Shown in pieces: positions 1 to 37,494 of a stretch of 64,000 nt of DNA. Below the pieces are notes generated by a model, which did not search any database, was not told the DNA's origin, and worked only from the letters and a program-made list of their open reading frames with translations. The stretch is from Arenimonas sp. Lineage in GTDB: Bacteria; Pseudomonadota; Gammaproteobacteria; Xanthomonadales; Xanthomonadaceae. The first letter of the stretch is position 1; each line of letters begins with the position of its first letter. Where the stretch lies: contig JBOHYH010000171.1 in NCBI GenBank assembly GCA_050737775.1, positions 8,300 to 72,299 of the forward strand, read 5' to 3'. Made by a program: the position numbers and the translations under genes.

Positions 1-68
1 AAAAAAGCATCGTTTTGAAGCAATTTGCTCCGCTTTTTGTATTCGTCAAGCAAATCGTTATATTTCAT
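1..68 (-). CDS. 5' part of a gene running off the left edge (MKYNDLLDEYKKRSKLLQNDAF...)
   Basis: ATG at 68 preceded by GAGGTG; open to the window edge; follows the repeat at 74-154 as the other array genes do. Confidence 0.5.
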   Translation of the reverse strand, partial: MKYNDLLDEYKKRSKLLQNDAF

Positions 69-73
69 ATTCA

Positions 74-154
74 CCTCTAACAAAAAAATAGTATGCCGAT
101 GTGAAATTGGAATACAGGATACGCAAGGAGGCCACCCTGATCGCCTAATTAAAC
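74..154 (-). repeat. Intergenic cassette-type repeat, copy 1 (degenerate attC-like)
   Basis: Core 98-144 matches 1413-1459 at 35/47 nt ungapped; the stop codon of 149..742 lies in the R''-like heptamer GTTTAAT; R'-like GTTAGAG at 80-74. Confidence 0.7.
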
Positions 155-742
155 GCTGTTGCGGACATAGTCAATTTGTCTCGGGAGCTCGCCCCAAAAT
201 GCTGCCACAGTTTTAATGAGCAGCCGAAGTTGGTCCATTGAAATTGAAACTATTGGAAGATGGCTATTATCTTCAGGAACAAAGAAAAAATCAGGGTGAG
301 CCTTCATGGCAGCGTCAAATTTTTTGCTAGGGCCATGCTTAAAGGCATTTACAACCATCCTAGCCCTGTCTAGTTCAAGCCAGTACTCTTCAGGCGCTGA
401 CGCCTCGAAAGTATTTAAAAGCACTCTCTTTCCGTATTGAACAATGTTTTCATGCGAAGGTAAAGTTGGGATAGTTAGATCAGATCGTTCTTTTTGTTCG
501 AGAAACAGCTCTTGAAGCTGGCGCTCCCACATATGATACGTCGATACGAAACCAAGTACTCCAAGCTCCTGTTTTGCCCAGTCTTCCGCAATACTCCCAA
601 ATATTTCGTCTAAGGACTCTTGGCTGGCTTGTTGTTCAATTACAGGAAAAAGTAACCCAAAGAAAAGTGTTTCTTGATGATAAGCATGCACAGCTTTGAC
701 AGTTAAGCCATCATGTGGATATATGTAGGTTATCTTGGTCAT
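149..742 (-). CDS. Hypothetical protein, possibly HEPN-like
   Basis: 197-aa ORF; helical, with WERQL...ELDRARMVVNAFKHG reminiscent of HEPN N-x3-H motifs. Confidence 0.55.
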   Translation of the reverse strand: MTKITYIYPHDGLTVKAVHAYHQETLFFGLLFPVIEQQASQESLDEIFGSIAEDWAKQELGVLGFVSTYHMWERQLQELFLEQKERSDLTIPTLPSHENIVQYGKRVLLNTFEASAPEEYWLELDRARMVVNAFKHGPSKKFDAAMKAHPDFFFVPEDNSHLPIVSISMDQLRLLIKTVAAFWGELPRQIDYVRNSV

Positions 743-747
743 CTAGC

Positions 748-827
748 ACCCAAAAAAAAGTGTCTACTGCCGGATGTGAAACTCGAAAGCAGGTCTTTCA
801 CTGGGATCACCGGTTGTGCAGTTAGGT
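748..827 (-). repeat. Intergenic cassette-type repeat, copy 2 (degenerate attC-like)
   Basis: Core 773-819 matches copy 3 at 31/47 nt; canonical R'' ACCTAAC contains the TAA stop of 822..1376; actgc/gcagt inverted arms at 766-770 and 818-822. Confidence 0.7.
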
Positions 828-1376
828 GCCATGCTCGTGAAGAAAGCGCTCCAATGCCACGTTATTGTGACTATTGAAGCCCTCAACAATAAGGCCGTCT
901 TCTGGAGAATACAGTAAGCCCGCAAAGGGGTCGACGTCACTTGGGATATGAGGAATTGGAGCGTCGCTTCTTAAGCTCCCTTGTATATACATAGCGGCCC
1001 CATTGACTAGTCTTATAAGCGCGATTCCATGTGTACGCGCAAATTCGATTGCACCCTCTTGAAAGGCAGAAGTACTCACAAGAATTGCCTTATTGGCACC
1101 AAGAGACTGCTGTTTCTGATGCAGTATTTGCACTAACTCCCTCTTAATGGGGTTCTTATGCTTCTTACATTCAACTAGGGTCTTGAAATGAACTCCACCA
1201 AGTGCCTTAAAGCGTACAACAACATCTATCTCATAATCACCATCAGTGCCGCTGAGAATTTCACGATGAGTCACTGAAAATAAGTTTAGTTCGTCTCCGC
1301 AGGATTCAAACCATTTTTTTACTTGGATCTCATATTCTTCCGGCGTGATATTCGAGACACTTTGAAAATGTTTCAT
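822..1376 (-). CDS. Mrr-like (Mrr_cat) restriction endonuclease domain protein
   Basis: EIDVVV...LVECKKH...ILVSTSAFQEGAIEFA...IALI motif series; ATG at 1376 (the ORF track extends to 1388). Confidence 0.85.
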   Translation of the reverse strand: MKHFQSVSNITPEEYEIQVKKWFESCGDELNLFSVTHREILSGTDGDYEIDVVVRFKALGGVHFKTLVECKKHKNPIKRELVQILHQKQQSLGANKAILVSTSAFQEGAIEFARTHGIALIRLVNGAAMYIQGSLRSDAPIPHIPSDVDPFAGLLYSPEDGLIVEGFNSHNNVALERFLHEHGT

Positions 1377-1379
1377 GGG

Positions 1380-1469
1380 CCCCAACAACCAAAATAAGGT
1401 GCCGACGCACCGGATGTGAAATAAAAAAGCAGTTTACGCACTGAGGTCACCTTGATTGCGTAGATAGGC
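1380..1469 (-). repeat. Intergenic cassette-type repeat, copy 3 (degenerate attC-like)
   Basis: Core 1413-1459; acgca/tgcgt inverted arms at 1405-1409 and 1457-1461; R''-like GCCTATC and R'-like GTTGGGG. Confidence 0.7.
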
Positions 1470-1476
1470 TGCTCAT

Positions 1477-2007
1477 TCAAACTATGCCCGCTAAGCGCTG
1501 CATTCGCCAAAGGCCCATTGCTTCGCAATAAGCGACCTCATCTGGCCATGTTTTGAGTGCTTTAACGTATGGACTTTTGTACGAAGATTCACGCTCCAGG
1601 CAAAGACCGTCCTCAAATCCCCAAAGGCATGCCAAGCGATCAGCAAGAAACTCTTCTCCATAATTTCCTAGCTCTTTGTACTGCGGCATTGTATCCATAA
1701 GTGAGCAATGATGGGCATGGGCATGTCCAATCTCGTGAGCAAGAACGGCCTCCATGACTATAGGTTGAAGAGCATTAAATGTGGATTTATTAATGTGAAT
1801 AGTATTAGTCGATCTGCGGTATGCAGCACAGGTATCTCTCATGACTTGGCTTCGCTCGGCCTCCGGGAGGCCAGAAAAGTCTTGTTCAAGCACAACATGA
1901 ATGCTTAAGTTTTGGAGCTCCCGTACATGGGAAAGCTTGTGCTGAACATCTTGGCAAAGATGGACAAGACTTGAATCAGATGGAATTAATTTAATAGGAC
2001 TGAACAT
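1477..2007 (-). CDS. HExxH zinc metallopeptidase-like protein (M48 or ImmA/IrrE-like)
   Basis: VLAHEIGH followed by EEFLADRLA. Confidence 0.7.
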   Translation of the reverse strand: MFSPIKLIPSDSSLVHLCQDVQHKLSHVRELQNLSIHVVLEQDFSGLPEAERSQVMRDTCAAYRRSTNTIHINKSTFNALQPIVMEAVLAHEIGHAHAHHCSLMDTMPQYKELGNYGEEFLADRLACLWGFEDGLCLERESSYKSPYVKALKTWPDEVAYCEAMGLWRMQRLAGIV

Positions 2008-2032
2008 TTTTTAGCCTAGAAACTAGTTAACC

Positions 2033-2075
2033 CAAAAGCGGGGTGAAATAAGAGTATCCCGCTGTTCAGATCATG
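2033..2075 (-). repeat. Possible degenerate fourth copy of the cassette repeat
   Basis: cggggtgaaataa ... gatca resembles cggatgtgaaataa ... gatca with slightly shorter spacing; preceded by acccaaaa as in copy 2. Confidence 0.35.
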
Positions 2076-2315
2076 GGCAAGCTTAACTACCACTTTTATT
2101 GAAAGAGGATGCATATCAGTAGCTGAGCGGTGGCCCTGTAAACTGTTGTCCTTCCCATTAAAATTTACCCAACTCAACGACTCCATAAAAGGCCCACAAT
2201 AGCTGTGTACGCTATGTAATTTGTTGGTGTGTTCGGGTTAGGTCACTTGGTCCAGTCACTCTTTCCGTTGTAGTCTCGACCTTTGAGATTGAGGAAAGCT
2301 AGGGTGACTCTCTAT

Positions 2316-3290
2316 ATGAGCCAAGTTATATCCAGGGGCAAGGTACCGTTCGGACTGCGGGACGGTAAGCTGCACTACGTGTCAGCAGTAGAGACAGGTC
2401 TCGCCTGCCATTGCGTTTGTCCTGACCCTAACTGTGCAAGGCCGTTGGTTGCTCGCAATCGACCCTCACCGACACGACAACGCATTTCTTACTTTGCACA
2501 TGCATCTCAGAGCCCCGGTTGTGGCGGACGCGAGAGTGCCCTTCATCGAATGGGCAAAGAAATAGTGTCGCGTGCAACAAGACTCATGCTTCCGGCTTGG
2601 TCAGCTCTGGATAAAGAATTTTTGTTTGGGGCAACCATCGCAACGCTTGCTCCTGGAAGTGCACAAGAAGTGACATTGAGCGGCAATCAGATGCGGCCGG
2701 ACCTGAGGGTTATTGCATTGAGTGGCCAAGCTTTGATCCAAGCTCTCTATGTCGAGATCAAAGTCTCGCATGCTGTAGATTTGATTAAACGTCAGCGCGT
2801 TATCGCCCAAGGCATAACAATGTTGGAGATCGATCTGTCGGATGTTTCCGATGAAGACCTGCAAGACGAAGCCGCATTCGCTCGGCACGCCCTCGAATGT
2901 GCCGACAACCGGCACTGGATTCATATTGGAAACGGTGCATTTCTGGCAAGCATGCTTGGGCAACCTGTCATTCAGGTGGTTAACCAAGACGTTAGAGAAA
3001 AACGTGTTCCTACTAAAAGTGGAGGGCAGCTAATTCTTCAAGAACAAGCAATGGTGCAACATATACCAATGCAGGAAGCACCCACCCCATTTTTCGGAGA
3101 GCTTGCGAACTACGTAAAGGAAAAACAGCGCATTGATCGCTTCGGGAATCACCTTCCCTATTCGAAAGGCCTTTATGTTGTGGGTCGAGATTCTGGGAGA
3201 GGCTATCCCTACGATGACAGTCACTTCAAGACACAGCTTCGCCCTATAGTTCAAGACTCTTGGTGGAACGCACAGAAACCTCTCCTCTAA
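2316..3290 (+). CDS. CoiA-like nuclease (N-terminal Zn-finger plus PD-(D/E)xK domain)
   Basis: CHCVCPDPNC...YFAH...C...ESALH N-terminus; RPDL...LYVEIKVSHAVD nuclease motif. Confidence 0.7.
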   Translation: MSQVISRGKVPFGLRDGKLHYVSAVETGLACHCVCPDPNCARPLVARNRPSPTRQRISYFAHASQSPGCGGRESALHRMGKEIVSRATRLMLPAWSALDKEFLFGATIATLAPGSAQEVTLSGNQMRPDLRVIALSGQALIQALYVEIKVSHAVDLIKRQRVIAQGITMLEIDLSDVSDEDLQDEAAFARHALECADNRHWIHIGNGAFLASMLGQPVIQVVNQDVREKRVPTKSGGQLILQEQAMVQHIPMQEAPTPFFGELANYVKEKQRIDRFGNHLPYSKGLYVVGRDSGRGYPYDDSHFKTQLRPIVQDSWWNAQKPLL

Positions 3291-3362
3291 GTGGAATGAG
3301 GGGCCTTTTTCAAGAAAACAACTTACCTTTTTCGCTCGACTGCTACTTAATCTGTACTTCCT

Positions 3363-4847
3363 TCACTCAAGTCCGAGCGCCCGTCGCACATCTCGGCGAA
3401 TCGTGGCCTCTTCGCTATCGAGATTCACAGCTACTTCCGGCACCAATGCTTGGTTATTGCCACGCGTGCGGTTTCGCCACACCTTGACGGGCATGACGAA
3501 CCGATTGCCGCTAGGCATCTCTGAACTGCTACCGACCAGATATACGCTATCGGCACCGGTAGTCTCGCCCACATGCACTACGCCGGGGACCCGCAACACG
3601 ATATCGGCGAAATCTAGACATGCGCTGACGCAGTTGCTGTCGGTCAACAGCGCAACCTTAGCGTTGAAACGACGTAGGTGACCACACCTGGCGACGACAG
3701 CTTCACGCGTGATCATGTGCCCGGCATCTTGCTCTACCCAAATCTGTCCGGCAGTTTTTGCGGTGACTACCTTGTCGCGGAATGCGATGTCGTCGGCCAC
3801 ACGCGGGCTATCGGCACCGTATAATTTCTTATTTTCTTCGATGTTCAAACCCAGGAATTGAATCAGGTAATCGGACACTCGCCATTGCGCGTAGTACCGC
3901 GGTAGCGAATCGAGATCGGTTTGGTCAAACTCGAGGCCACCCGTGGCGGCTTCGAAAATATGATCGCCGATGCTACTGTCGCCACCCCGGTTGCCGCGCG
4001 AATCGAACACGATTGCGCGGATATAATGCAACTTCGCAAGTTCGGCGAGCATCGTGGCCAGTGCCTGCTGATCGTCTTTATTCAGATGAAAATTTCCGGC
4101 GCGGACCCACAATATGCCGTCGTTTAGCTCGAAGCTGTTCGCGGAAGGCGTTCCCGGCTTCCGGAGTTGCGACACCGTATCGAAGAATTGCTCGGTGTAA
4201 ATCGGCTGGTAGTTGACTGGCAATCGTATTGTGTCGCCGTTGGTCTTTTGGAACGTGCACTCGCGCAAGTTCTCCGCGACCGGCAGTTGCATCCACAACA
4301 AACCAACACGGTGATTTCGGCTTTGTTCGCCCGTACGCAAGTCGGAAAACGGCGCGATCCTAGTTTGCATGACTTGCTCGGCTGATAGCCCGTCACAAGC
4401 TATCCAGGTGGCGCTCACCGGTGGCAGTGGGACGGACCAATTAGGCAGTACGGCGGCAACCACGTAATGTCCGCCCTCCCATTTCACATGCCAGCCATTA
4501 ACAAAAATTGGGAAGTTCTCGCGAATATCATCCGAGTAAACCAGATGCCCGTCCTCGAAGCCTGCGGCGTAATAGCGCACCACCAACTTCGCCGTGTCGT
4601 AACTCACGATATACGGAAGGTAAGTCTTGGCCTGCTCATAGCCTTGCTCGACCCAGAGCTTGAATTCGGGATTCGCCGGATCGATGACGCCTGGATGCCC
4701 CTCGAGGATACGTGCACGCATTGCATCGAGATCGACACGGGCCATTGCCTGCCAACGGTCGGCGTCAAGCGGGGAAGTTGCACTCGTCGCACTGGCTGTG
4801 AACAAGGTCAGTGCTGCCAGAACAGTCTGCGTCAATCCATTTCGCAT
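3363..4847 (-). CDS. Secreted S41-family (tail-specific) peptidase
   Basis: Signal peptide; FDSRGNRGGDS, CVSACLDF, VHVGETTGA and P...W motifs. Confidence 0.8.
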   Translation of the reverse strand: MRNGLTQTVLAALTLFTASATSATSPLDADRWQAMARVDLDAMRARILEGHPGVIDPANPEFKLWVEQGYEQAKTYLPYIVSYDTAKLVVRYYAAGFEDGHLVYSDDIRENFPIFVNGWHVKWEGGHYVVAAVLPNWSVPLPPVSATWIACDGLSAEQVMQTRIAPFSDLRTGEQSRNHRVGLLWMQLPVAENLRECTFQKTNGDTIRLPVNYQPIYTEQFFDTVSQLRKPGTPSANSFELNDGILWVRAGNFHLNKDDQQALATMLAELAKLHYIRAIVFDSRGNRGGDSSIGDHIFEAATGGLEFDQTDLDSLPRYYAQWRVSDYLIQFLGLNIEENKKLYGADSPRVADDIAFRDKVVTAKTAGQIWVEQDAGHMITREAVVARCGHLRRFNAKVALLTDSNCVSACLDFADIVLRVPGVVHVGETTGADSVYLVGSSSEMPSGNRFVMPVKVWRNRTRGNNQALVPEVAVNLDSEEATIRRDVRRALGLE

Positions 4848-4958: not shown

Positions 4959-5357
4959 TCATTTTTGTTTTTCATATGAGTGCACTTCAAGTATTTCGAC
5001 ATTTCCAATCAGTTTCCCATCTTTTTCCGCAGTGAACTTTCCAGAAAAATCTATCTTAAATGGAGTTGCGGGATGATAGATATCGCCAAAGACTGCACGT
5101 CGAAACGCTTCAGTCTTGGCACTCATTAGCGGCATAGGGTTCAGAGCAACATCAGGACAATTTTTATCCACCAAGACCGAACCATGCATTCGATCTGGTA
5201 AATAAGTGGCTCGAATTCGAACAGTTGCTTGATTCAGGTCATTTGCATTTTCAGCCATATCACAAATAGTCATAACTTTTTGACTACTTGTGCAGCTACA
5301 GAGCAGCAATGTAGAGAAGCCATATGCAAAAAGTAATTTCATAGCTTTTATTTGCAT
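4959..5357 (-). CDS. Putative lipoprotein, candidate immunity protein of the RHS toxin
   Basis: Lipobox-like LLLCSC; overlaps the RHS stop by 10 nt; small gene directly downstream of the toxin tip. Confidence 0.65.
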   Translation of the reverse strand: MQIKAMKLLFAYGFSTLLLCSCTSSQKVMTICDMAENANDLNQATVRIRATYLPDRMHGSVLVDKNCPDVALNPMPLMSAKTEAFRRAVFGDIYHPATPFKIDFSGKFTAEKDGKLIGNVEILEVHSYEKQK

Positions 5358-8300
5358 CCTAAGCCTCCTTTAGCACAAGCGGAAGTTACGGAGCCTTGGG
5401 CACCGACAGCAATTGCAGCTTCACGCTGTGCTTGAGTCATCCCGGGCAAATTCAAATTTGTTGTAGTCCCTAGCGCTTGATTCAGAACTGATTCGATTCG
5501 ATTTGAATTAAATTCTGTCGAAAACCTTTCTTTTAAATCATTAGGAAAATAACTTGGGAAAAAGGACTCCTGTCTGTCGATCTCATGATTTACTTCATGT
5601 GATAAGACACTCGCGCCCAGTTCAGCTTCTAACTTTGACGACGATTTCCCTTTATTATGTGCACCTAAATCTTTCGCCCATTGTTTCACCTGTGCAATAT
5701 CAATAGTAATGTGTCCACCCGGCTTACTATCTGCCATACCGGTTTTCGGCGTTCCGGGATCGAACGTAATTCCATTCTTTGTCCACGGCTGTCCAATCAT
5801 TGCTGAAATTCTCGATAATCGGTTATAGCTTTGACTGCCCGGTTTCATTTTACTCAGACCCAGGTTAAGTGCGCTGACGTAAGAATCTACACTTCCGCAA
5901 TCCTGTGGCATACCACTGCACCAATACCTGCCGTCAGGGTCTGTGAATTTATACGGGTTGTCCGCCGCATACCAAAACCGATTGAAATTCGTCCCAGCAT
6001 TGAGATCAGTAGTGACCGGATCAGGTGATAAAAATCTACCGATCAGCGGATCATAATAGCGCTGTTGTGCATAAGTTAACCCCGTTAACGAGTCGGTGAC
6101 ATGCCCCGTATAGCCAGGCCCTTGGTCATACATTTGATCGCTTGGTTCGCCATAAGGCGTGTAACGTTCAATTCTGGTAATAGTGCCGGCTTGATCGGTG
6201 TACGCGACCGGGCTACCCAGCGAGTCGGTGTGTAAATAAGTATTAATGTAAGTAGTCGTTTGTGCGTTTGTACCCGTTAGAGCTGCACTGCGTTGTGCCA
6301 CTAGCCTTCCGTTCAAATAGACGAAATCGGTCTTTTTGTTACTTCGTGAATCATCTTCCGTAAGCAATTGTCCATTGAGATCGTAAACAGAATAATTGAT
6401 TTTGCCATCACTTAGACGTGTGGTTTTAACGCGCCTGCCATGCCCGTCGTAAATATAACTTTCTTTGCCGGTGACTTGTGTGACGCGATTCAGTGCGTCG
6501 TAAACCATCGGTTGGCGACCGCTTGTGGTATTACCGTTAGCGTCATAGCTAAATTGGTACACCGTGACCGGTTGTTCCGGAATTTGACAGCAAGGTGCTG
6601 CAACCGCCTGGGTCGTTACTGGTCCACTAGGATTGGCAGACCTTGACGATACAGGCGCGCTCGATCTGTTATTACTATTTGATGCTGTAGCGACTACAAC
6701 ACTTTGCTGCTGGCCTCCTCCGGGAGGGTCGTCTCCACCACCACCCGGCGGAGTACCACCGCCGCCTGGTGGTGTCGTGCCACCGCCACCTTCCGGACTG
6801 AGATCGCCAATATCGGTTGCCAATGCAAAGTTATCGCATGTGGGTAGTGAAGTGCTCGCCGTGGTCGTTGACTGGGGACCGGGCGATGTTCCAAATGGCT
6901 TCGTAATTTTTGAGAGACGGTTATTCGCATCGTAAACATACGAATGCACGCGATTACCCATCGTGTATCCGCGGATATTATCCAGCACGTCATAACTTGT
7001 ATTTGCATAGGCCCACCACTGACGAGGTGCGTTTGTATTCAACAAGCGATCCAGCCCATCGTATTGCATATCGCGATCACCACCATTGCCGCTTGCGTTA
7101 TCGCGAATACAACGGATATTGCTGTTTTCGTCAAAAGCGACACGCTCGTCTTGAAGTAACGCCGTTCCAAGGCTATCGCTACGCTCAGCCGATAGCCCAC
7201 GCAAATTCGGCAACTGGCGATGTACGGCAGTATTGCCATAGGTAAAACCCGTCATCGCACCATTGCTTCGATAGCTTACAGTCGTCGCGAAAGCTCCGGC
7301 CTGAGTTACTTGACCCAACGCATTCGGTGAATACGCTACTGCTAAATTACTCGGCAAGGTTAACTGATCCTCCACACCATCAGCGTTGTAGCGGTGGGCG
7401 ATAGTTTTAGTGCGACTATCTAACGTCAGAATTTCGGAGGTTGGGAGATTAAGTTTGTTATAGGCATAATTCCATACGACACCGCCGTTACTGAGAGTTT
7501 TCAGCAATCCGCCCGGCAAATAATCGTAGGCTAGATCGCTTGTACTGTTTGGCACATCCATCGTTTTAATTCGGTTGAGAGGATCGTAAGTCCGAATCAT
7601 TCTGGCCGATGCTGGCACAGCGTCGCGATCGCAAACATGGATATTAGCGACCGTTTGACCCGGCGCGGACCACAAGAGATTGCCTGCAGGGTCATAACTC
7701 ATCACCAATGTGCCCGTTTCCGGTTCTGTACGCTGACACAAACGGTGCTGCGCATCATAGACATAGTGACGACTGACGAAATCTCCACCACTCACAGCAC
7801 CCCGCGAGATTGAGAGGGGTTTGCCAAAAAGATCGCGAGTAAAGATAGTCAACGCATCTTCTGGCGATTCAATACTCACCGGCAAACTCGTATCAGGCGT
7901 ATCCCATGCCATAAAGCTGGTGGTTGTACTGAAAAGCTTGGGATTGGTAGTTTTAATCAGAAAGCCGGGCAAATATTCTTTGCTGGTAACAAGCACACCC
8001 AGCTCGGAATCTTGTTTGATTTGGGTAACGCGACCTAGATCATCATATTGCGTGCGAGTGCCTTGGGTAATTAAATCGCCTTTACCAGGATAAGAGGCAA
8101 ACACCACACGCCCCTCGCCATCGTAGGACGTTCTGGAGAATCGTTGCGTGCTGAGGATGTTGGCATTGTCGTACTCCCGTTTAACCACGGGACGCCACAT
8201 CGCATCGAAATATGTTTCAGACCGGGAATTGCCGACGCTGATCATCTGCTTCCACGCACCCGCAGGAAGGCCATACGCGGGGGTGGCAAGTTTGTCGAAA

Positions 8301-10702
8301 GAGAGCGTCGTCGCATTCCATGCCACCGTGTCACCGGCGGGCGGTAAAATTTTGGTCAGACGACCTAACGGGTTGTATTCATATGCCGTTGTGTTGCCAC
8401 GAGCATCTGTGTTTGAAGTCACCCATCCTAGATCATTGACTGCAGCGGTCTCAAAACTACTGTCAGGATAGTCGACTCGTTGTGGCATGCCGCGTTTGTA
8501 CTCACTGAGTGTAGTGATCTTGTTATTGGCATCCTTGATGGTCGCGACAGTGCCGTTCGCATTGTAGGTCGTTATTGATTGCAGGGAGCCGAAGCTATAG
8601 GTTTGCAGCGGCAAATTGGAGGTGGCGTCATACTCGGTTCGACTGACTTCTTTCGTTGTTGCTGCGTCGCCGGTAATGCCTGTCGAGACTGAACTCACTC
8701 GGCCAAGCACCCATCTATTCAAATCATCGCGATACACCACCGTATCGGTTTTACTGGGTGCCAATACGCTAGATTTGGTAACACTGGTCGGGCGTGCAAA
8801 ACTGTCGTAACCATTTACGACTGAGTTGAAACTGACACCATCTTGAATAATGGTGGTGGTTTTCAACGGGCCAATGTACTCGGAACTAAACGTAGATACT
8901 TGTCCGCGCTGCGGACTTGCTGCGAAAGGCGTCGGAAAAGGCAGTCCTTGTTTTGCAAGCTCGTAGGTATTGCTTTGCGTACTTAGCGTTACGGCTCCTC
9001 GTCCTTTCTCAGAAAGTAGCATTTTGCCTTCGTTGTAATAGTAACTATTGCCAAAGGTGAATTTTTCCCAAGTTCCATTGCTATTACTTACTAGTGTGAA
9101 ATTCTTTCCAGCGCAGCTATCGGACTGACAGATCGGATAGGATGGCGCGAAACCCACCAAGCTCGTGGTGTAGCTGTAGTCTTGGGCGGTGGTTTGTATA
9201 CCGGCACCTGAAACACTCTTGCGCTTCAGCGCAAGCACATCGTAACGAACCGCATCCGTGTTTTGCTGAAAATTCTTGGCGTTAAACCACGGCGGCATCT
9301 TCGGGACGAAATACGTATTGGTTTGGCAGTTATTGGTCACATTGGACCGACCAAAACGTGTTGGCATCACCGTGAATTCACCAACAGCGCCAGACGGATG
9401 CTTGATGGTCCCTGTGTAAGTACGAATGACGGCATCACCTGGGGTTTCGCAAGTATGCGACTCCTCTCGGGTATCCAGGTTGATCCAATAGTCGACTTTT
9501 GCATCGCTGAGGCCAGCGAATGCGAATTCCCACGCACTACTGTCCGGCAAAATTACTTTCTTCAACAGAGGTTTTGCTGTCGTGAAGTACTCATACTCAT
9601 AGCGCCAAGTGCGCGTCCCATCAGTGACGCTTGAAACATAGTCCCGGTAGCCACCAGCAAGATAAGAAATGGTCAAAGTCCGCAGATCACTCGACTTAAT
9701 TTGTGTCAGCTTGACAGGGTAGTAAGGACTATTGGCGTAGGTGTATTCCACCCAGTTACCATGACGATCTTCTACCCGTGTTGCATACATCGCCATACGA
9801 GCACGACGCAATGCATAGCCTTGGCCTAACTCTAAGAGGGGTTCATAGGTTTGCGCCCGCCAGTCAAAGTAATACTTGGTGCCATCGCTTGTGACGGCGA
9901 CAAATCCTTCGCCCGTACCATTTTTAATGCTAGGCAAACACGAAAAAAATGTCTGGTTATTAGTTGACCAATAATAAGGCCCTCCTTGCGTCGGTTTGGC
10001 GGCATTGTTATTGATCAACAACAATTCACCGCCCCCTGGCATTTGCGCATGAAAGCCATGCCAATATTGACCGGGACGGATAAAGTTGTAGGTTTTCATT
10101 CCATACGTCATGGAATTGGGATTTGTGTCAGTAGACGTGGTTTGTATGTGGGGCGGCATGACTGAGGCAGCATTACTCACGCTGCAGCGTTGATCTTTCC
10201 ATTCCTCGATGGAGGCAAAACTGATGTTGGGGATATCTAACTGCCAATCTGCCAGCGCCGAGTCGTAAACGATATAGCCTTTTACGTTGCGAACCGAATG
10301 AGCGCGAGTAAAGGCAACGGGCAAAGCACTGTTTCCGGGCAGCGATATGTCGGTTGCCGAAAAAGACAGTCCGCCGTGACTTAGATCTACCTGATCGCCG
10401 AATAAATTCGGTCCTAAAGTCGTTATCGTTTTACCGTTTTGAACCGATTTTTCGTATTCACCATAGACATTGTTCTCAGACGAAACCGCTGTGCCGGAAG
10501 ATTGTGTCGTGGACCCACTGCTTTGGGTGCTCGAGTTCGTCGAAGGCGCAGAGTATTGAACTACGCTGTCGCCATTCACATACGATTGGCCGTTTTCCGA
10601 TACCGTTGGTGCAGGTAACGTTGGTAATTTGGTGGGGGATAGTTGTGCGGAGAGTTGAAAGCTGGAAGTTAGAAGCAGAGCGCCAAATACAATTTTTTTC
10701 AT
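5348..10702 (-). CDS. RHS/YD-repeat protein with Sec signal peptide and C-terminal HExxH toxin domain
   Basis: YD repeats; RHS core YLHTDSLGSPV...YTPYG...GYTGH...RYYDP...PYKFTDPDG; C-terminal HEVNH at 5585-5599. Confidence 0.92.
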   Translation of the reverse strand: MKKIVFGALLLTSSFQLSAQLSPTKLPTLPAPTVSENGQSYVNGDSVVQYSAPSTNSSTQSSGSTTQSSGTAVSSENNVYGEYEKSVQNGKTITTLGPNLFGDQVDLSHGGLSFSATDISLPGNSALPVAFTRAHSVRNVKGYIVYDSALADWQLDIPNISFASIEEWKDQRCSVSNAASVMPPHIQTTSTDTNPNSMTYGMKTYNFIRPGQYWHGFHAQMPGGGELLLINNNAAKPTQGGPYYWSTNNQTFFSCLPSIKNGTGEGFVAVTSDGTKYYFDWRAQTYEPLLELGQGYALRRARMAMYATRVEDRHGNWVEYTYANSPYYPVKLTQIKSSDLRTLTISYLAGGYRDYVSSVTDGTRTWRYEYEYFTTAKPLLKKVILPDSSAWEFAFAGLSDAKVDYWINLDTREESHTCETPGDAVIRTYTGTIKHPSGAVGEFTVMPTRFGRSNVTNNCQTNTYFVPKMPPWFNAKNFQQNTDAVRYDVLALKRKSVSGAGIQTTAQDYSYTTSLVGFAPSYPICQSDSCAGKNFTLVSNSNGTWEKFTFGNSYYYNEGKMLLSEKGRGAVTLSTQSNTYELAKQGLPFPTPFAASPQRGQVSTFSSEYIGPLKTTTIIQDGVSFNSVVNGYDSFARPTSVTKSSVLAPSKTDTVVYRDDLNRWVLGRVSSVSTGITGDAATTKEVSRTEYDATSNLPLQTYSFGSLQSITTYNANGTVATIKDANNKITTLSEYKRGMPQRVDYPDSSFETAAVNDLGWVTSNTDARGNTTAYEYNPLGRLTKILPPAGDTVAWNATTLSFDKLATPAYGLPAGAWKQMISVGNSRSETYFDAMWRPVVKREYDNANILSTQRFSRTSYDGEGRVVFASYPGKGDLITQGTRTQYDDLGRVTQIKQDSELGVLVTSKEYLPGFLIKTTNPKLFSTTTSFMAWDTPDTSLPVSIESPEDALTIFTRDLFGKPLSISRGAVSGGDFVSRHYVYDAQHRLCQRTEPETGTLVMSYDPAGNLLWSAPGQTVANIHVCDRDAVPASARMIRTYDPLNRIKTMDVPNSTSDLAYDYLPGGLLKTLSNGGVVWNYAYNKLNLPTSEILTLDSRTKTIAHRYNADGVEDQLTLPSNLAVAYSPNALGQVTQAGAFATTVSYRSNGAMTGFTYGNTAVHRQLPNLRGLSAERSDSLGTALLQDERVAFDENSNIRCIRDNASGNGGDRDMQYDGLDRLLNTNAPRQWWAYANTSYDVLDNIRGYTMGNRVHSYVYDANNRLSKITKPFGTSPGPQSTTTASTSLPTCDNFALATDIGDLSPEGGGGTTPPGGGGTPPGGGGDDPPGGGQQQSVVVATASNSNNRSSAPVSSRSANPSGPVTTQAVAAPCCQIPEQPVTVYQFSYDANGNTTSGRQPMVYDALNRVTQVTGKESYIYDGHGRRVKTTRLSDGKINYSVYDLNGQLLTEDDSRSNKKTDFVYLNGRLVAQRSAALTGTNAQTTTYINTYLHTDSLGSPVAYTDQAGTITRIERYTPYGEPSDQMYDQGPGYTGHVTDSLTGLTYAQQRYYDPLIGRFLSPDPVTTDLNAGTNFNRFWYAADNPYKFTDPDGRYWCSGMPQDCGSVDSYVSALNLGLSKMKPGSQSYNRLSRISAMIGQPWTKNGITFDPGTPKTGMADSKPGGHITIDIAQVKQWAKDLGAHNKGKSSSKLEAELGASVLSHEVNHEIDRQESFFPSYFPNDLKERFSTEFNSNRIESVLNQALGTTTNLNLPGMTQAQREAAIAVGAQGSVTSACAKGGLGCK

Positions 10703-15140: not shown

Positions 15141-15247
15141 AATTTCTACTTACATTGGTAGTGCGTCGAAGCCTACGGTGTGAGATTGAGACTTTTTTGT
15201 GCCGTTGTCAAGCACATGAAGGCAGCAGTCCCGTTTCGCCTAAAATC

Positions 15248-17770
15248 ATGCTGAACGACAAGGAATTCAATACCTATATCCAAGAGCAGGAAGTCTCGGC
15301 ATCCGCTACTTCCTATATCGATACCACTAGAAAATCCAACCCTGCAAAAGCCGCTGGTGATGGGGCTTTATTGAATATGTCTTGCCGACTGGCGAGCCGA
15401 AAAATGGGCCACATCGTACAGGCCGCAAGTCGCACTGTGGAACTGCCCTATGCTATTCATTGCGAACTGCACCCTACCGTCTTTGAATTTTGGGACCAGC
15501 CCCGTCCGATACGTCTCATCCGTGTAAGGCTAAGCAAGAAAACCAACAAAGACATTCGCCATGTTGCTTCTTATACCGGGGATTACTTGACGCTTTACGG
15601 TAGCGGACCGGCAATCGTTGAATGTAAGTCTGCATCGGCGTATGAAAAACTAAAATCGAAACGTCCCAGCGACTGGAGTATTTCAGATTCGGAAATTGTC
15701 TATTTTCCGGCACTGGTAGCAGCACAGAATCTTGGCTTAGCTCATATCGTGGTAATGCCTGAGTCTCATTACGCAATTCGCGTAAATAACTACGAGCTCA
15801 TGTACGCGTGTCGGTATAGCCAGGCACCAAAAAATGAAGCTGCACTTCTCGAAGAAACGCGGGCTAGTTTGGCGGACGATCCGAAAACTATTGCACAACT
15901 TTGTGAGGAAGTAGATGGGCTGAATGACAGCTTGATCATTCATTGGCTTTCGCGCTTTGAGCTTCATTCATGTGTGAGATCTCAGCTGCTGATGGAGCGA
16001 CATTCCGCCTATATCTATCTAAATGCAGATGACGCAAAAACTAGAGACGATTTCCTGAAAGCGGAGCAAGACAGGAACAATGGCTTTATCGACTCATCAA
16101 AACTATCTATCGTCCTAACGTGTTCGGCATCTGCATTAAGGACCGGCGAAGCACATCAGAAAAAATATCAGGAATTCCTGGATGGGAAACGCAGTAAAAC
16201 CAGGCATGAACGCCGCTTTCCAGAAGAACTAATACGCGAATGCATAAATCGTTCTGGAAATCCTCTGCATCTTTTTATTCCTAACTACAAGTGCCGTGGG
16301 AATCGAAACGACAGGTATTCGCCTAAGCAGATCGAAATTTTTAACAAGGCTCTTAAGCAAATAATGGCGTCGCCCAGTCGTGCCACGCCAACACGTGTCC
16401 TTGCTCGAATGGACAGGCTATCGAAAGCAGACCCAAGAAGTATTGAGCAAGTTTCGCTTGAATCTGTACGTCTACGTCTGAAAAAGGAAGATCAGGAAAA
16501 AATCGCCCTGGCTCATGCTGGTCTTCGTGGATTCCATGGTGAACGACCGCCGATCGATCCCCTCTTCGGCACGTTGCGTACCTGGGTGCCGGGACTTGTT
16601 GTACACATCGATTCAACGCAGTGGGACCAGCGGCTTTGGAAGGAATCAGGCTTTGCGGACATCCTGCCTTGCCCTTGGTGGTATGGCGCCTTTGACGAAG
16701 GAAGCGGTCGCTGTGTAGGAGCATCATTAGCCTTCGGTAAATCTGACACATTCGCAATGTCTCTAGTGATGCGCGATATGGCTCGTCGTCTCGGTTTTTT
16801 ACCTGCCTTCATCGTCACAGATCGAGGCTCAGAATTTCAGTCAATTCTTTTCGAAACACTCAGTGCATTATGTAGCGTCAGCACCTTTCTGAGACCCGCC
16901 GGAGGCGCACGTTTCAGCTCTGAAGCTGAAAATGGTATGCGCCTGCCAAATGTGCAAATGGCGCAGCGTTTGTCCGGTAGTACATTCCTGGATAAAGCTG
17001 GCCGAAGTGCTGATGGCAAGAAGAAAGGTCGTTATAACGCTCGAATGACGTATCAACTGGCTAGGCAAGCATTGATCTGGTATCTCTTCGAATTCTTCAA
17101 TAAGAACAAGCACGGAACAGCTCCCGACACGCCCGATAATCTGTGGGACGAGGGCCGACTTTGCTATCCGATGGTCGGTTGCGAACTACTCGAGCCCCAA
17201 AACTGGGCTATTGCTTCAAGCGTGCCAGTGAAAGGCACCGTCGAGCGATTAAAAGGGATTCGTACCTACTACCGCACCTACAGTTCAAACGAGCTCTCTG
17301 AAGCACTCAAACGCAACGAGACCCCTAGTCGCAATCGCATCGACCCAGAAATACCGACTCTAATGTATTCAACAATTCATGGCCAAGTAATTAAGGCGCA
17401 TGACAGACAACACCTTCGCCTCAGTTCCCTGCCAACCGAGGCTCAAGTAGCCGAGCAGTTTTTGCATCGTCTGCGGGCAAAGGAAAACAGCAACGATCGA
17501 CGCGAGCAGCGTATGAAACTAGATACACGACTCGACCAAATGGAGGAGGTGGCCGATCTACTCCATGACACTAAAAAAGCCGCTACAGGTACTGATATTC
17601 CTAAGAACAGTAACACCAGCGTCGAACCTGAAGTGCATAAAACTAGTGGGGCAGACGCGTCCCCTGTAGTTCCGGAAAAGCAAAAAACGTCGCTATTCGA
17701 TCAAATTGCAAAGACTAAACCCCCAACCCAACTTAAGGATTTTGATGATGAAAAAAATTCCAGTGTTTGA
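15248..17770 (+). CDS. tnsAB: Fused TnsA endonuclease - TnsB DDE transposase
   Basis: N-terminal TnsA-like S..E.......E.....EFWDQP...YTGDYL...IVECK; C-terminal DDE triad VHIDST / IVTDRGSEF / SEAENG; a single ORF. Confidence 0.85.
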   Translation: MLNDKEFNTYIQEQEVSASATSYIDTTRKSNPAKAAGDGALLNMSCRLASRKMGHIVQAASRTVELPYAIHCELHPTVFEFWDQPRPIRLIRVRLSKKTNKDIRHVASYTGDYLTLYGSGPAIVECKSASAYEKLKSKRPSDWSISDSEIVYFPALVAAQNLGLAHIVVMPESHYAIRVNNYELMYACRYSQAPKNEAALLEETRASLADDPKTIAQLCEEVDGLNDSLIIHWLSRFELHSCVRSQLLMERHSAYIYLNADDAKTRDDFLKAEQDRNNGFIDSSKLSIVLTCSASALRTGEAHQKKYQEFLDGKRSKTRHERRFPEELIRECINRSGNPLHLFIPNYKCRGNRNDRYSPKQIEIFNKALKQIMASPSRATPTRVLARMDRLSKADPRSIEQVSLESVRLRLKKEDQEKIALAHAGLRGFHGERPPIDPLFGTLRTWVPGLVVHIDSTQWDQRLWKESGFADILPCPWWYGAFDEGSGRCVGASLAFGKSDTFAMSLVMRDMARRLGFLPAFIVTDRGSEFQSILFETLSALCSVSTFLRPAGGARFSSEAENGMRLPNVQMAQRLSGSTFLDKAGRSADGKKKGRYNARMTYQLARQALIWYLFEFFNKNKHGTAPDTPDNLWDEGRLCYPMVGCELLEPQNWAIASSVPVKGTVERLKGIRTYYRTYSSNELSEALKRNETPSRNRIDPEIPTLMYSTIHGQVIKAHDRQHLRLSSLPTEAQVAEQFLHRLRAKENSNDRREQRMKLDTRLDQMEEVADLLHDTKKAATGTDIPKNSNTSVEPEVHKTSGADASPVVPEKQKTSLFDQIAKTKPPTQLKDFDDEKNSSV

Positions 17771-18854
17771 ACATCAGAAATTTAATGAGGCGCTTGATGA
17801 GTGTTACGACCTCATTCTAAATGCCCAACCTGGAGAACTCATCCATATCGTTGGTGCATCGGGCATTGGAAAATCAACGCTTCGCAACCGCTTGTTTCTG
17901 GAAATCGGTAAGTCCCTGGGTGATTTGCCCATTGGTGAATTACGGATTATTTCAGTCAATGCCAGTAACAATTCGAATTCTTACTATGATTCCAAAGATT
18001 TTTTCTCTCGATCGCTCATCTATGCTGGCGACCCCTTCCGTTTCGTACCAAATGCAATTGAGAAGTCGAACGATGCCGACTCATTAGATCGATACCTAGA
18101 GCGCCTCGTTAAATCAAAAGAATGGCTCGCCAAGAATATCCCGAATACTGAAACTGATATCCGCAGCGCATTTGAAAGAATCTGCACCGTTAGGGGAGTG
18201 CTCTTCTTTTTCATTGACGAGGCACATGTCATTCGAATCAACCATAAGAACCGCGATCCGTCCAATCATATTGAGTCTCTTAAAAATATTGCCGTAGAAT
18301 TGGGAATCGTGATCGTACTTTTTGGCACATTTGCGTTGCTGGAGTTGTGCAATTTCAGCTCAGAAGTCAATCGTAGGGGACCTGTAGTCCATTTCTCCCG
18401 GTATATGGAAAATGTTGAAGAACTGCCAGGCTTCCTTGACGTCCTGGAAAAGCTAGGTGCGGAATTCACGTTTTGCGATCCCGAGTTTATTCGAACACAT
18501 TGGGAGTATATCTATAGTGTGACGGTCGGGGTTATAGGTGAAGCACATGGCTTGTTTAGAAGAGCAAGCGCCAAAGCTTGGGTACGGTGCAGAAAAGCGA
18601 AAATTAGCAGAGTGACAATCATTTATGCAGACTTAAAGAATGCAGCACACCCAGTGGCAAGACTAAAGAAACTCTATTTCGATATTGCAGTCGGTGAGGC
18701 ATATTTCGAGCAAGCTACGGACGAACTGCTCGGAGAATTGCGTCATAAATTGATGACAAACACGCTGATTGAAAGCCCCACTGATGACCCAATATCTCCT
18801 AAACGTCGACCTGGCCTTAGAACTCTTGTCCGAGACAAGGTAGGAATACGGTGA
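17745..18854 (+). CDS. tnsC: TnsC/TniB AAA+ ATPase
   Basis: Walker A GASGIGKS, Walker B FFFIDEAH; RBS taagga before ATG 17745; overlaps the tnsAB end. Confidence 0.9.
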   Translation: MMKKIPVFEHQKFNEALDECYDLILNAQPGELIHIVGASGIGKSTLRNRLFLEIGKSLGDLPIGELRIISVNASNNSNSYYDSKDFFSRSLIYAGDPFRFVPNAIEKSNDADSLDRYLERLVKSKEWLAKNIPNTETDIRSAFERICTVRGVLFFFIDEAHVIRINHKNRDPSNHIESLKNIAVELGIVIVLFGTFALLELCNFSSEVNRRGPVVHFSRYMENVEELPGFLDVLEKLGAEFTFCDPEFIRTHWEYIYSVTVGVIGEAHGLFRRASAKAWVRCRKAKISRVTIIYADLKNAAHPVARLKKLYFDIAVGEAYFEQATDELLGELRHKLMTNTLIESPTDDPISPKRRPGLRTLVRDKVGIR

Positions 18855-26626: not shown

Positions 26627-26725
26627 AAGGCGTCACACCCTATTGGCTGATATTTGGAAATACGGGTTATCGTAAGCGTATCACCATCCTGTTCAGCTTT
26701 GAGAGTAGAAATTGTGTTCGATGCC

Positions 26726-27766: not shown

Positions 27767-27851
27767 GAATTCCTCTGGCAGATATGAAATTAGGTCTCTC
27801 CCAAACTGACAATGACTCATACGACTTATGCTATTACAACAGACAGAGTAT

Positions 27852-29080: not shown

Positions 29081-29148
29081 ATGTTTTGTCCGAAGCATTA
29101 ACAATCAAAACATGTCCGAACGGACAGAAATTGCTTGGTTGTCCAAAG
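29081..29148. repeat. Periodic tgtccRaa repeats, candidate TnsB-binding sites / transposon end
   Basis: tgtccgaag at 29087, tgtccgaac at 29113, tgtccaaag at 29140 (26-27 bp period); palindrome tgtccg-aa-cggaca at 29113-29126. Confidence 0.45.
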
Positions 29149-29171
29149 CCAAAGGGCCTGTTCGCAAAAAG

Positions 29172-29248
29172 TGGCGCGCCCGACAGGAGTCGAACCTGTG
29201 ACCCTTGCCTTCGGAGGGCAATACTCTATCCAGCTGAGCTACGGGCGC
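29172..29248 (-). tRNA. tRNA-Arg(CCG)
   Basis: 77-nt cloverleaf GCGCCCGTAGCTCAGCTGGATAGAG-TA-TTGCC-CTCCGAA-GGCAA...GGTTCGACTCC...CCA. Confidence 0.97.
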
Positions 29249-37290: not shown

Positions 37291-37494
37291 TTAGCCGCGT
37301 TTGAACATGGCAGCATCGATAATCGACCAGATGTGAATTATCCAGCCCAGTAAAATCCACCACAGTACTGCCGCTGCAACAAACATGAAGAGCGCTTTCA
37401 ACACACGACCTTGCACCAGCTGCCCCAGACCGGGAATGAAAAAACTGCAGACCGCGGCAATCACATTACCGGCAGACCCTTGACCTGTACTCAT
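37291..37494 (-). CDS. Small membrane protein (67 aa)
   Basis: MSTGQGSAGNVIAAVCSFFIPGLGQLVQGR..., a TM2-like PGLGQ motif; the ORF track over-extends it to 37845. Confidence 0.75.
   Translation of the reverse strand: MSTGQGSAGNVIAAVCSFFIPGLGQLVQGRVLKALFMFVAAAVLWWILLGWIIHIWSIIDAAMFKRG

What the first reader, a model, noticed from the sequence alone, without database searches (positions are those of the whole stretch)
74..1469. Array of single genes each followed by a conserved non-canonical ~80-90 bp repeat (atypical attC/cassette system, no integrase in view)
SEEN: three copies of a 47-nt core (98-144, 773-819, 1413-1459) with ungapped identities of 35/47, 31/47 and 27/47. The shared consensus is GATGTGAAAnnnnAAnnCAGnnnnnnCAnnGnGnnCACCnnnnnGC. 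Each copy sits directly after the stop of an unrelated minus-strand gene and before the next start. R''-like heptamers (GTTTAAT, ACCTAAC, GCCTATC) lie 1-3 nt beyond the core, and two contain the stop codon. R'-like heptamers (GTTAGAG, TTTGGGT, GTTGGGG) lie on the far side. Copies 2 and 3 have different but self-complementary 5-bp arms spanning exactly 57 nt (actgc/gcagt vs acgca/tgcgt), which looks like covariation. The array continues off the left edge. KNOWN: integron cassettes have this gene-site architecture, but attC sites are conserved in hairpin structure more than sequence. INFERENCE: either a decaying CALIN with an unusual attC family or a different cassette-capture system.
Basis: partly seen in the sequence, partly recalled or inferred. 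Interest (0 to 1): 0.8.

Follow-up and report, generated by a model that had tools for sequence, protein, structure and literature searches.

The report
Decayed integron remnant without integrase
The three repeats are worn-down but ordinary integron recombination sites (attC) of this Arenimonas genome's own chromosomal integron family, next to a leftover attI site whose integrase gene is gone, so this is a fossil gene-cassette array and not a new capture system.

Summary
The three repeats exist as described and exceed chance. They are not an atypical site family. The same ~90-nt element occurs about 34 times in this genome, in tight arrays on small contigs. One copy lies beside a bona fide integron integrase on contig C47. 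The family consensus is a standard attC: an R box (GCCTAAC/GTTAGGC), an unpaired spacer, a 3-bp L box, extrahelical G and T on the arm opposite the AAC triplet, and a variable loop. The boxes of neighbouring sites are complementary, as expected when integrase-made cassettes are inserted.

A covariance model built only from the 29 copies outside the window finds just the three window copies in 64 kb. Their scores fall with distance from the right end: 75.9, 36.2 and 23.8 bits. Each has a mutated AAC or GTT triplet.

Window 2013-2084 is a remnant of the attI site. No intI lies on the 97.7-kb contig. The cluster is therefore a decaying, integrase-less integron remnant (a CALIN). It has three cassettes in view and probably a fourth off the left edge. 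It sits inside a ~31-kb insert next to tRNA-Arg.

The proposed 5-bp covarying arms are not supported. This is a known kind of element and of low interest.

The parts
1378..1471 (+). attC site w3. It is the best preserved copy and the closest to attI. The + strand is the recombinogenic bottom strand. R' is CCCCAAC (AAC intact). R'' is GATAGGC (GTT mutated to GAT). The L box, both extrahelical bases and both 6-bp stems are essentially intact.
   Evidence: Model R1, built without the window copies, scores it 75.9 bits, E=1e-20, full length. It is 83-88% identical to attC copies in other Arenimonas genomes.
739..829 (+). attC site w2, degenerate. R' is ATCTAGC, so the AAC cleavage triplet is mutated to AGC. 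R'' is GTTAGGT and contains the stop codon of ORF 822-1388. The stems are eroded.
   Evidence: R1 scores it 36.2 bits, E=2.4e-8, with several non-canonical pairs marked in the alignment.
73..156 (+). attC site w1, the most degenerate of the three. R' is CTCTAAC. R'' is ATTAAAC (GTT mutated to ATT) and contains the stop of ORF 149-742. About 9 nt of the 5' arm and loop are missing.
   Evidence: R1 scores it 23.8 bits, E=1.8e-4. nhmmer gives E=4e-12 over the right two thirds.
2013..2084 (+). attI remnant: AGCCTAGAAACTAGTTAACCCAAAAGCGGGGTG...CAAGCTT. The junction box GCCTAGA is mutated from GCCTAAC. intI, which should follow on the + strand, is absent.
   Evidence: A profile of the attI and intI-upstream region from 9 Arenimonas integrons hits only three places in the genome: C47 (a member of the profile), C146, and C171:10312-10383 (window 2013-2084), E=1.8e-8. 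It is 41/47 identical to the attI region of Arenimonas LC038, score 62 against a shuffled maximum of 28. No TIGR02249 hit falls on C171.
1477..2007 (-). Cassette ORF 1 (attI-proximal), 176 aa, an HExxH zincin-like metallopeptidase.
   Evidence: Pfam: Peptidase_M48 at 1.8e-5, just above its cut-off, and SprT-like at 4.6e-5, just below its cut-off. Homologues at 41-62% identity sit in unrelated, non-integron contexts.
822..1388 (-). Cassette ORF 2, 184-188 aa, with an Mrr_cat restriction-endonuclease-like domain.
   Evidence: Pfam Mrr_cat at 1.7e-15. Weak PADLOC hits to PDC-S02 and type IV REase models.
149..742 (-). Cassette ORF 3, 197 aa, no recognised family.
   Evidence: No Pfam hit reaching the curated cut-off, and no NCBIfam or PADLOC hit.
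1..68 (-). 5' end of a fourth ORF, 226 aa in all, spanning C171:7687-8367 and running off the left edge. It is probably a fourth cassette. Its RBS (GAGGTG) is formed by the R' box of w1.
   Evidence: ORF list. A probable decayed attC right arm, GGATCACCTTGATCACATCGTTAGAGG, lies at C171:7668-7695 and overlaps its stop. Its GTTAGAGG is complementary to the unusual w1 box CCTCTAAC. nhmmer gives only E=0.28.
29172..29248 (-). tRNA-Arg(CCG). It marks the right border of the ~31-kb insert that contains the integron remnant.
   Evidence: ARAGORN. In relative G059 this tRNA lies directly beside the EEP gene that sits at C171:4873-6156 here.

Best explanation
**What it is.** The repeats are attC recombination sites of the chromosomal integron family native to this Arenimonas (Lysobacteraceae) genome.

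**Layout.** The window holds the attI-proximal end of a second, defunct integron platform. From right to left it has:
- an attI remnant at 2013-2084
- three gene cassettes on the minus strand, each ending in its attC
- probably a fourth cassette running off the left edge

The intI gene that should sit to the right of attI has been deleted. In IntegronFinder terms the cluster is a CALIN.

**How such sites work (established knowledge).** The bottom strand of each attC, here the + strand, folds into an imperfect hairpin. IntI binds it and cleaves between A and C of the 5'-AAC-3' triplet in R'. This excises or inserts a circle made of one ORF plus one attC.

**Current state (inferred).** The sites are no longer maintained.
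- Each has lost one of the two conserved triplets.
- The stems are eroded.
- Preservation falls with distance from attI.

The cassettes are probably frozen in place. They would be expressed, if at all, from their own or read-through promoters.

**Shown versus inferred.**
- Shown: family membership, the canonical structure of the family, linkage of the family to IntI and attI, the attI remnant, the absence of intI, and the degree of decay.
- Inferred: that intI was lost by deletion and that the sites are now inactive.
For: 1. **Genome-wide family.** nhmmer finds about 34 copies (E<=1e-4), arrayed 350-830 bp apart on C73, C75, C183, C149, C302, C328, C118 and others.
2. **Integrase.** TIGR02249 scores 483.8 bits (cut-off 265) at C47:798-1739. 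An attC lies 500 bp upstream and attI lies between them, in the divergent arrangement.
3. **Canonical structure.** A 22-pair R-box, L-box and stem structure is paired in 82.7% of cells. Slid controls give 24-41.5%. Compensatory changes occur in the L box and stems. Unpaired G and T sit at positions 16 and 23 from the R'' end, on the arm opposite the AAC triplet, as for attC_aadA7.
4. **Cassette signature.** The outer 5 nt of the right box of site n are complementary to the left box of site n+1 at 4.5/5 on average, with 12 of 22 perfect. The same site gives 2.1/5 and random pairs give 2.4/5.
5. **Independent model.** R1, built from the 29 copies outside the window, recovers exactly the three window sites in 64 kb.
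6. **attI remnant.**
7. **Relatives.** In 60 genomes of the same genus, only the attC part of window 1-3300 has DNA matches, and it has dozens per genome. The cassette ORFs have none. In 25 of 37 related intI loci, all 67 forward-strand hits lie upstream of intI in one orientation.
8. **No intI.** No intI-like match falls anywhere on C171.
Against:
- The genome is a fragmented MAG (387 contigs, 3.1% contamination). It cannot be shown that C47, C146 and C171 belong to one chromosome.
- IntegronFinder's generic attC model could not be run.
- Beyond position 2084 the similarity to intI-upstream sequence is weak, so the deletion breakpoint is not defined.
- The fourth site to the left is below significance on its own.
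Confidence: 0.9

Rival explanations
1. The cluster is a CALIN made de novo. Cassettes were inserted at a secondary, non-att site by the IntI encoded on C47 acting in trans, and there was never a second integron platform here.
For: Secondary-site insertion is a documented route to CALINs (PMC4889954). An intact IntI exists elsewhere in the genome.
Against: An attI-like segment homologous to the attI regions of C47, C146 and Arenimonas LC038 lies exactly where the first cassette ends. A secondary-site insertion would not bring attI with it. The attI is closer to that of another species (41/47) than to the genome's own C47 copy (27/33).
Confidence: 0.05
2. The remnant is still functional. Despite the mutations, IntI supplied in trans can excise or reshuffle these cassettes, so the cluster is a live extension of the integron.
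For: attC recognition depends mainly on structure. w3 keeps the L box, both extrahelical bases, both stems and the AAC triplet in R'. [quoted passage not shown]
Against: Each site has a mutated AAC or GTT triplet. R-box pairing in w3 is only 4/7. w1 and w2 score 24-36 bits against 74-106 bits for 28 of the 29 sites used to build the model. The complementarity of neighbouring boxes has decayed to 2-4 of 5.
Confidence: 0.1
3. The repeats belong to a new cassette-capture system with its own, non-IntI recombinase and a non-canonical site.
Against: All canonical attC features are present in the family. The family is linked to standard IntI and attI here and in relatives. Cassette boundaries fall at the canonical G|TT position.
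Confidence: 0.01
4. The repeats are a regulatory or structural intergenic element, such as a REP-like repeat, terminator, UTR element or transcription-factor site.
For: They are intergenic, follow stop codons and contain inverted repeats.
Against: Significant copies genome-wide (34 at nhmmer E<=1e-4) lie almost entirely in tight arrays on a few small contigs, not scattered upstream of core genes. No Rfam family matches. The window copies have lost their hairpin potential: their MFE structures at -4 to -10 kcal/mol do not form the attC stem. They have no T-run.
Confidence: 0.01

Closest known systems
CALIN (cluster of attC sites lacking an integron integrase), as defined by IntegronFinder (Cury et al. 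2016, PMC4889954)
   Same: It has at least 2 attC sites in series, one per small ORF, and no intI nearby. The cassette genes have little or no annotation. Its attC sites are more divergent than those in the large array of the same genome.
   Different: An attI remnant survives here, which points to intI loss as the origin. Cury et al. found recognisable intI pseudogenes near only 15 of 279 CALINs. Here not even a pseudogene is detectable.
Sedentary chromosomal integrons of Xanthomonadales/Lysobacterales, for example the Xanthomonas ilvD-linked integron (Gillings et al. 2005; bioRxiv 10.1101/2025.06.18.660453)
   Same: The bacterial order is the same. The arrays have homogeneous, lineage-specific attC sites. 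intI inactivation is frequent. Additional CALINs occur at other chromosomal loci in about half of genomes.
   Different: The genus is different (Arenimonas). The locus is not next to ilvD but inside a ~31-kb insert at tRNA-Arg(CCG). intI is completely deleted, not merely inactivated.
attC_aadA7 and VCR, the model attC sites (Nivina et al. 2016, PMC5027507)
   Same: The bottom-strand R' is RYYYAAC and R'' is GTTRRRY. Both have an unpaired central spacer, an L box, extrahelical G16 and T23 on the arm opposite the AAC triplet, and a variable terminal structure.
   Different: The length is about 90 nt. The loop (GGATGTGAAACTTGAAT...) is conserved within the lineage. The window copies carry disabling-looking mutations in the core triplets.

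Membership tests
integron attC site (family consensus in this genome) | R box: the bottom strand has 5'-RYYYAAC-3' (R') paired with 5'-GTTRRRY-3' (R'') | tested here: met
   The consensus is GCCTAAC ... GTTAGGC. The pairs TAAC/GTTA are kept in 27-29 of 29 sites.
integron attC site (family consensus in this genome) | Imperfect hairpin with an unpaired central spacer, an L box, extrahelical bases on the arm opposite the AAC triplet, and a variable terminal structure | tested here: met
   82.7% of cells are paired, against 24-41.5% in slid controls. Compensatory changes occur in the L box (AA/TT to GG/CC) and the stems. Unpaired G (column 90) and T (column 81) correspond to G16 and T23. The loop varies in length (definition from PMC5027507).
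integron attC site (family consensus in this genome) | One site per promoterless ORF, in arrays, next to attI and a divergent intI | tested here: met
   Arrays have 350-830 bp spacing. C47 has attC, attI and intI in that order. G066 has the same arrangement. In 25 of 37 related intI loci all hits are upstream of intI on one strand.
integron attC site (family consensus in this genome) | Cassette boundary at G|TT: the start of each cassette is complementary to its own R'' | tested here: met
   Adjacent-site complementarity is 4.5/5, with 12 of 22 perfect. The same site gives 2.1/5 and random pairs 2.4/5. The test includes rare boxes such as GTTATAAGA/TCTTATAAC and the attI junction on C146.
integron attC site (the three window copies) | Match to a family model built without them | tested here: met
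   R1 scores 75.9, 36.2 and 23.8 bits (E = 1e-20, 2.4e-8, 1.8e-4). No other hit in 64 kb has E below 2.
integron attC site (the three window copies) | Intact AAC and GTT triplets and a paired R box, as expected of a recombination-competent site | tested here: not met
   w3 has R'' GATAGGC. w2 has R' ATCTAGC. w1 has R'' ATTAAAC. The MFE folds no longer form the attC hairpin. The copies are therefore filed as decayed members.
integron attC site | Recombined by IntI in vivo | not testable with these tools
integron attC site | Detected by IntegronFinder's generic attC covariance model | not testable with these tools
   That model is not available here, and Rfam has no matching family.
CALIN | At least 2 attC sites clustered with no integron integrase nearby | tested here: met
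   Three sites lie within 1.4 kb. No TIGR02249 match falls anywhere on the 97.7-kb contig.
complete integron | intI present next to attI and the cassettes | tested here: not met
   There is no intI on C171. Similarity to the intI-upstream profile stops at window 2084.

The most novel reading that the evidence does not exclude
The integron remnant did not decay in place. It arrived as cargo of the ~31-kb insert at tRNA-Arg(CCG), which also carries TniB- and TniQ-like genes. That would make it a natural case of a chromosomal-type integron platform being picked up and moved by a mobile element, as Tn402 is thought to have done for the ancestor of class 1 integrons, followed by loss of intI. The attI being closer to that of another Arenimonas species than to the genome's own fits this reading.
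Probability: 0.12. Interest if true: 0.45.

Novelty: new member of a known kind. Interest (0 to 1): 0.15.

Why it matters
The result matters little beyond annotation. It shows that a conserved repeat after every gene in this window is an ordinary, eroding attC array, and it removes a candidate new cassette system from the list.

It has modest value as a clear example of one CALIN origin. Here intI is completely deleted while attI survives. In the 2016 survey most CALINs lacked any trace of intI, so this route could not be shown for them.

It also documents that Arenimonas genomes carry large chromosomal integrons. Related genomes have up to about 89 model hits. This genome has three attI sites but only one intI.

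Tried and rejected
Tested on 29 family members: 61.5% paired, no compensatory change, no better than shuffles. Rejected as chance. The TGCGT segment belongs to the unpaired spacer and L region.
- **More copies to the left.** The covariance model with filters off over C171:1-8400 found nothing with E below 1.7. nhmmer on 12 kb gave one sub-significant right-arm hit, E=0.28. It is kept only as 'probable'.
- **A possible fifth remnant** after the trypsin-like gene (GGTAGGAAA at C171:6403-6411). Seen by eye only, too weak, and not claimed.
- **Rfam scan of 1-2400.** No match.
- **Earlier notes of this scan.** None exist for this genome.
- **The cassette genes as a conserved operon or defence system.**
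  - Homologues of the 176-aa protein lie next to an IS, conjugation genes or an AddAB-like pair. They have unrelated neighbours and no attC.
  - PADLOC gives only weak domain-level hits.
  - The operon idea is rejected.
- **The 324-aa ORF at 2316-3290**, which replaces intI. No Pfam, NCBIfam, PADLOC or PDB match.
- **Terminal repeats of a Tn7-like element** at the island ends. None were found. Only a ~34-nt imperfect direct repeat turned up.

Full report
**Observation**

The window is contig C171:8300-72299 of a 3.44-Mb, 387-contig genome. The three 47-nt cores are at the stated coordinates. Their ungapped identities are 35/47, 31/47 and 27/47. The repeat finder groups them as one family. The 20-nt core pattern matches exactly three times in 64 kb, where shuffles give 0.55 on average and never reach 3.

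Each copy lies between the stop of one minus-strand ORF and the start of the next: 149-742, 822-1388 and 1477-2007. The three products are unrelated by Pfam. One has no hit reaching the curated cut-off, one has an Mrr_cat nuclease-like domain, and one is a zincin-like peptidase.

**What the repeat is**

A profile made from the window copies and five obvious relatives finds about 34 copies in the genome. They are packed 350-830 bp apart on small contigs: C73 has 7, C75 has 5, C183 and C149 have 4 each, C302 and C328 have 3 each, and C118 has 2. Single copies lie on C126, C146 and C47.

C47 also encodes a true integron integrase. TIGR02249 scores 483.8 bits against a curated cut-off of 265. The repeat lies about 500 bp upstream of it, and the gene arrangement is divergent.

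The well-preserved copies read GCCTAAC - 6 nt - AAT - AAGGTG - CCGACG - loop - CGGAGG - T - CACCTT - G - ATT - 5 nt - GTTAGGC. That corresponds to:
- a 7-bp R box with RYYYAAC/GTTRRRY
- an unpaired central spacer
- a 3-bp L box
- two 6-bp stems
- a variable loop
- two unpaired bases, G and T

The two unpaired bases lie on the arm opposite the AAC triplet, at positions 16 and 23 from the outer end. Nivina et al. define the recombinogenic bottom strand in these terms and name G16 and T23 as the extrahelical bases of attC_aadA7 (PMC5027507).

On 29 copies outside the window this structure is paired in 82.7% of cells. When the partners are slid, 24-41.5% are paired. Compensatory changes occur in the L box and the stems. 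The + strand of the window is therefore the bottom strand, and the cassette genes are on the top (minus) strand, as expected.

**Evidence that the family has been recombined by an integrase**

In an array, the first bases of a cassette derive from the R' of the preceding site and must pair with the cassette's own R''. For 22 neighbouring site pairs, including two attI junctions, the five variable outer bases of the right box of site n are complementary to the left box of site n+1 at 4.5/5 on average. Twelve pairs are perfect. These include rare boxes such as GTTATAAGA/TCTTATAAC. The two boxes of a single site agree at only 2.1/5, and random pairs at 2.4/5.

**Membership of the window copies**

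A covariance model (R1) was built only from the 29 non-window copies with the structure above. With filters off, it finds exactly three sites in the 64-kb window:

| Site | Coordinates | Score | E-value |
|---|---|---|---|
| w3 | 1378-1471 | 75.9 bits | 1e-20 |
| w2 | 739-829 | 36.2 bits | 2.4e-8 |
| w1 | 73-156 | 23.8 bits | 1.8e-4 |

Twenty-eight of the 29 copies used to build the model score 74-106 bits; the lowest scores 50.4.

The window copies are damaged:
- w3 has R'' GATAGGC in place of GTTAGGC.
- w2 has R' ATCTAGC, so the cleavage triplet AAC is now AGC.
- w1 has R'' ATTAAAC and has lost about 9 nt of its 5' side.

Their minimum-energy folds no longer form the attC hairpin. The complementarity between neighbouring boxes has dropped to 4/5, 3/5 and 2/5 going away from attI.

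**The attI remnant and the missing integrase**

The DNA search of relatives gave one hit that was not attC. Window 2022-2067 matches Arenimonas sp. LC038 (G066) at the inner edge of its cassette array. In that genome the segment lies between the first cassette and an intI that scores 489 bits and is 75% identical to the C47 protein. It is therefore the attI region.

The window segment is 41/47 identical to it, with a score of 62 against a shuffled maximum of 28. A profile of the attI and intI-upstream region from nine Arenimonas integrons hits only three places in this genome:
- C47, which is itself a member of the profile
- C146:2433-2226, E=4e-37
- C171:10312-10383, which is window 2013-2084, E=1.8e-8

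The match covers the junction box and the conserved ACTAGTTAACCCCAAAGTGGGGTG...CAAGCTT block, and it stops there. No intI-like sequence exists anywhere on the 97.7-kb contig. A 324-aa ORF with no family match follows instead.

C146 is syntenic with the LC038 integron but keeps only about the first 50 nt of intI. The genome therefore has three attI sites and one intI.

**Extent of the array**

The model finds nothing in the 8.3 kb to the left. The next gene, at C171:7687-8367, begins six bases after the R' box of w1. Its stop lies inside GTTAGAGG, preceded by GGATCACCTTGATCACATC. This resembles the attC right arm and is complementary to the unusual w1 box CCTCTAAC. The profile hit is the best sub-threshold match but reaches only E=0.28. 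I call it a probable fourth, more decayed cassette.

**Relatives**

IntI relatives identify the genus as Arenimonas, in the Lysobacteraceae.
- In 60 genomes of the same genus, the only part of window 1-3300 with DNA matches, apart from the single attI-region hit noted above, is the attC. It has up to 51 copies per genome in arrays. None of the cassette ORFs matches.
- R1 gives up to 89 hits in one relative.
- In 25 of 37 intI loci from Lysobacterales, all 67 forward-strand hits lie upstream of intI and on the same strand.

Cargo is variable, the repeat is shared, and a recombinase is consistently linked. That recombinase is the ordinary IntI.

**Context**

In relative G059 the EEP gene (80% identical to C171:4873-6156) lies directly beside tRNA-Arg(CCG). 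Here the same tRNA is at window 29172-29248. Homology to G059 breaks at about C171:6210 and resumes about 20 nt before the tRNA. The integron remnant therefore lies at the far end of a ~31-kb insert. The insert also carries an Rhs toxin, TniB- and TniQ-like genes, a STAND-like NTPase and DUF4238.

Homologues of the 176-aa cassette protein occur elsewhere beside an IS, conjugation genes or an AddAB-like pair. They have unrelated neighbours and no attC. The window genes are therefore independent cargo, not an operon.

**Comparison with what is known**

Clusters of attC sites without an integrase are defined and common (PMC4889954). That paper also reports that attC sites are most alike in the largest arrays and least alike in CALINs, which is the pattern seen here. 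In Xanthomonas, a member of the same order, integrons are ancestral, intI is often inactivated, and about half of genomes have extra CALINs at other loci (bioRxiv 10.1101/2025.06.18.660453).

It does not hold for large chromosomal ones.

**Limits**

IntegronFinder's generic model was not available. The genome is a MAG, so linkage between contigs is unproven.

**Verdict**

This is a real feature of a known kind, a decaying integrase-less integron remnant. It is of low interest except as a clean example of a CALIN that arose by intI deletion.

Noticed in passing
C171:~6211-37450 (window up to ~29151); tRNA-Arg(CCG) at window 29172-29248 (-): A ~31-kb insert lies here relative to Arenimonas relative G059, where the EEP gene and tRNA-Arg(CCG) are adjacent. 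An imperfect ~34-nt direct repeat (GGACAnAAATTGCTTG...AGCCAAA) lies at C171:6288-6320 and 37421-37455 (window 29122-29156). No tyrosine integrase is present on the contig.
   Followed up: partly
window 15155-20191 (+): An 871-aa ORF with no family hit is followed by a TniB-like AAA_22 ATPase (17706-18854) and a TniQ-domain protein (18851-20191). This looks like a Tn7/Tn5053-like transposition module inside the insert. No terminal inverted repeats were found at the insert ends.
   Followed up: partly
window 4959-10702 (-): A 1784-aa Rhs-repeat protein with a variable C-terminal domain is followed by a 132-aa ORF with a lipoprotein-like signal, possibly its immunity partner. An S41-peptidase-like 494-aa ORF lies at 3363-4847.
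   Followed up: no
window 21761-28814 (-): A 1621-aa protein has weak, below-cut-off hits to AAA_16 and STAND-type NTPase domains. Next to it are a 477-aa ORF, a DUF4238 protein (26726-27859) and a 320-aa ORF with no family. The content resembles a defence island beside the tRNA.
   Followed up: no
G000 contig C146:2150-2440: A second attI has only about the first 50 nt of intI left. It sits at the position syntenic with the intact integron of Arenimonas sp. LC038. The first cassette's R'' matches the attI junction 9/9. The genome has three attI sites but one intI (on C47).
   Followed up: partly
G000 C75:127-240 and C149:1816-1929: These are half attC sites. The left arm and loop are present and the right arm is replaced by unrelated sequence. 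They may be array ends or rearrangement breakpoints.
   Followed up: no
L009 (C171) 6415-7524 (-): A trypsin-like peptidase of 369 aa has a strong hit to the PADLOC candidate defence family PDC-S45 (E=6.5e-21). It lies just left of the cassette cluster. By eye, a GGTAGGAAA box 4 nt after its stop resembles a decayed R''.
   Followed up: no
window 50292-50332 (-): A short hairpin with TAAC...GTTA ends gives a weak R1 hit (10.5 bits, E=2.4). It is probably chance.
   Followed up: no
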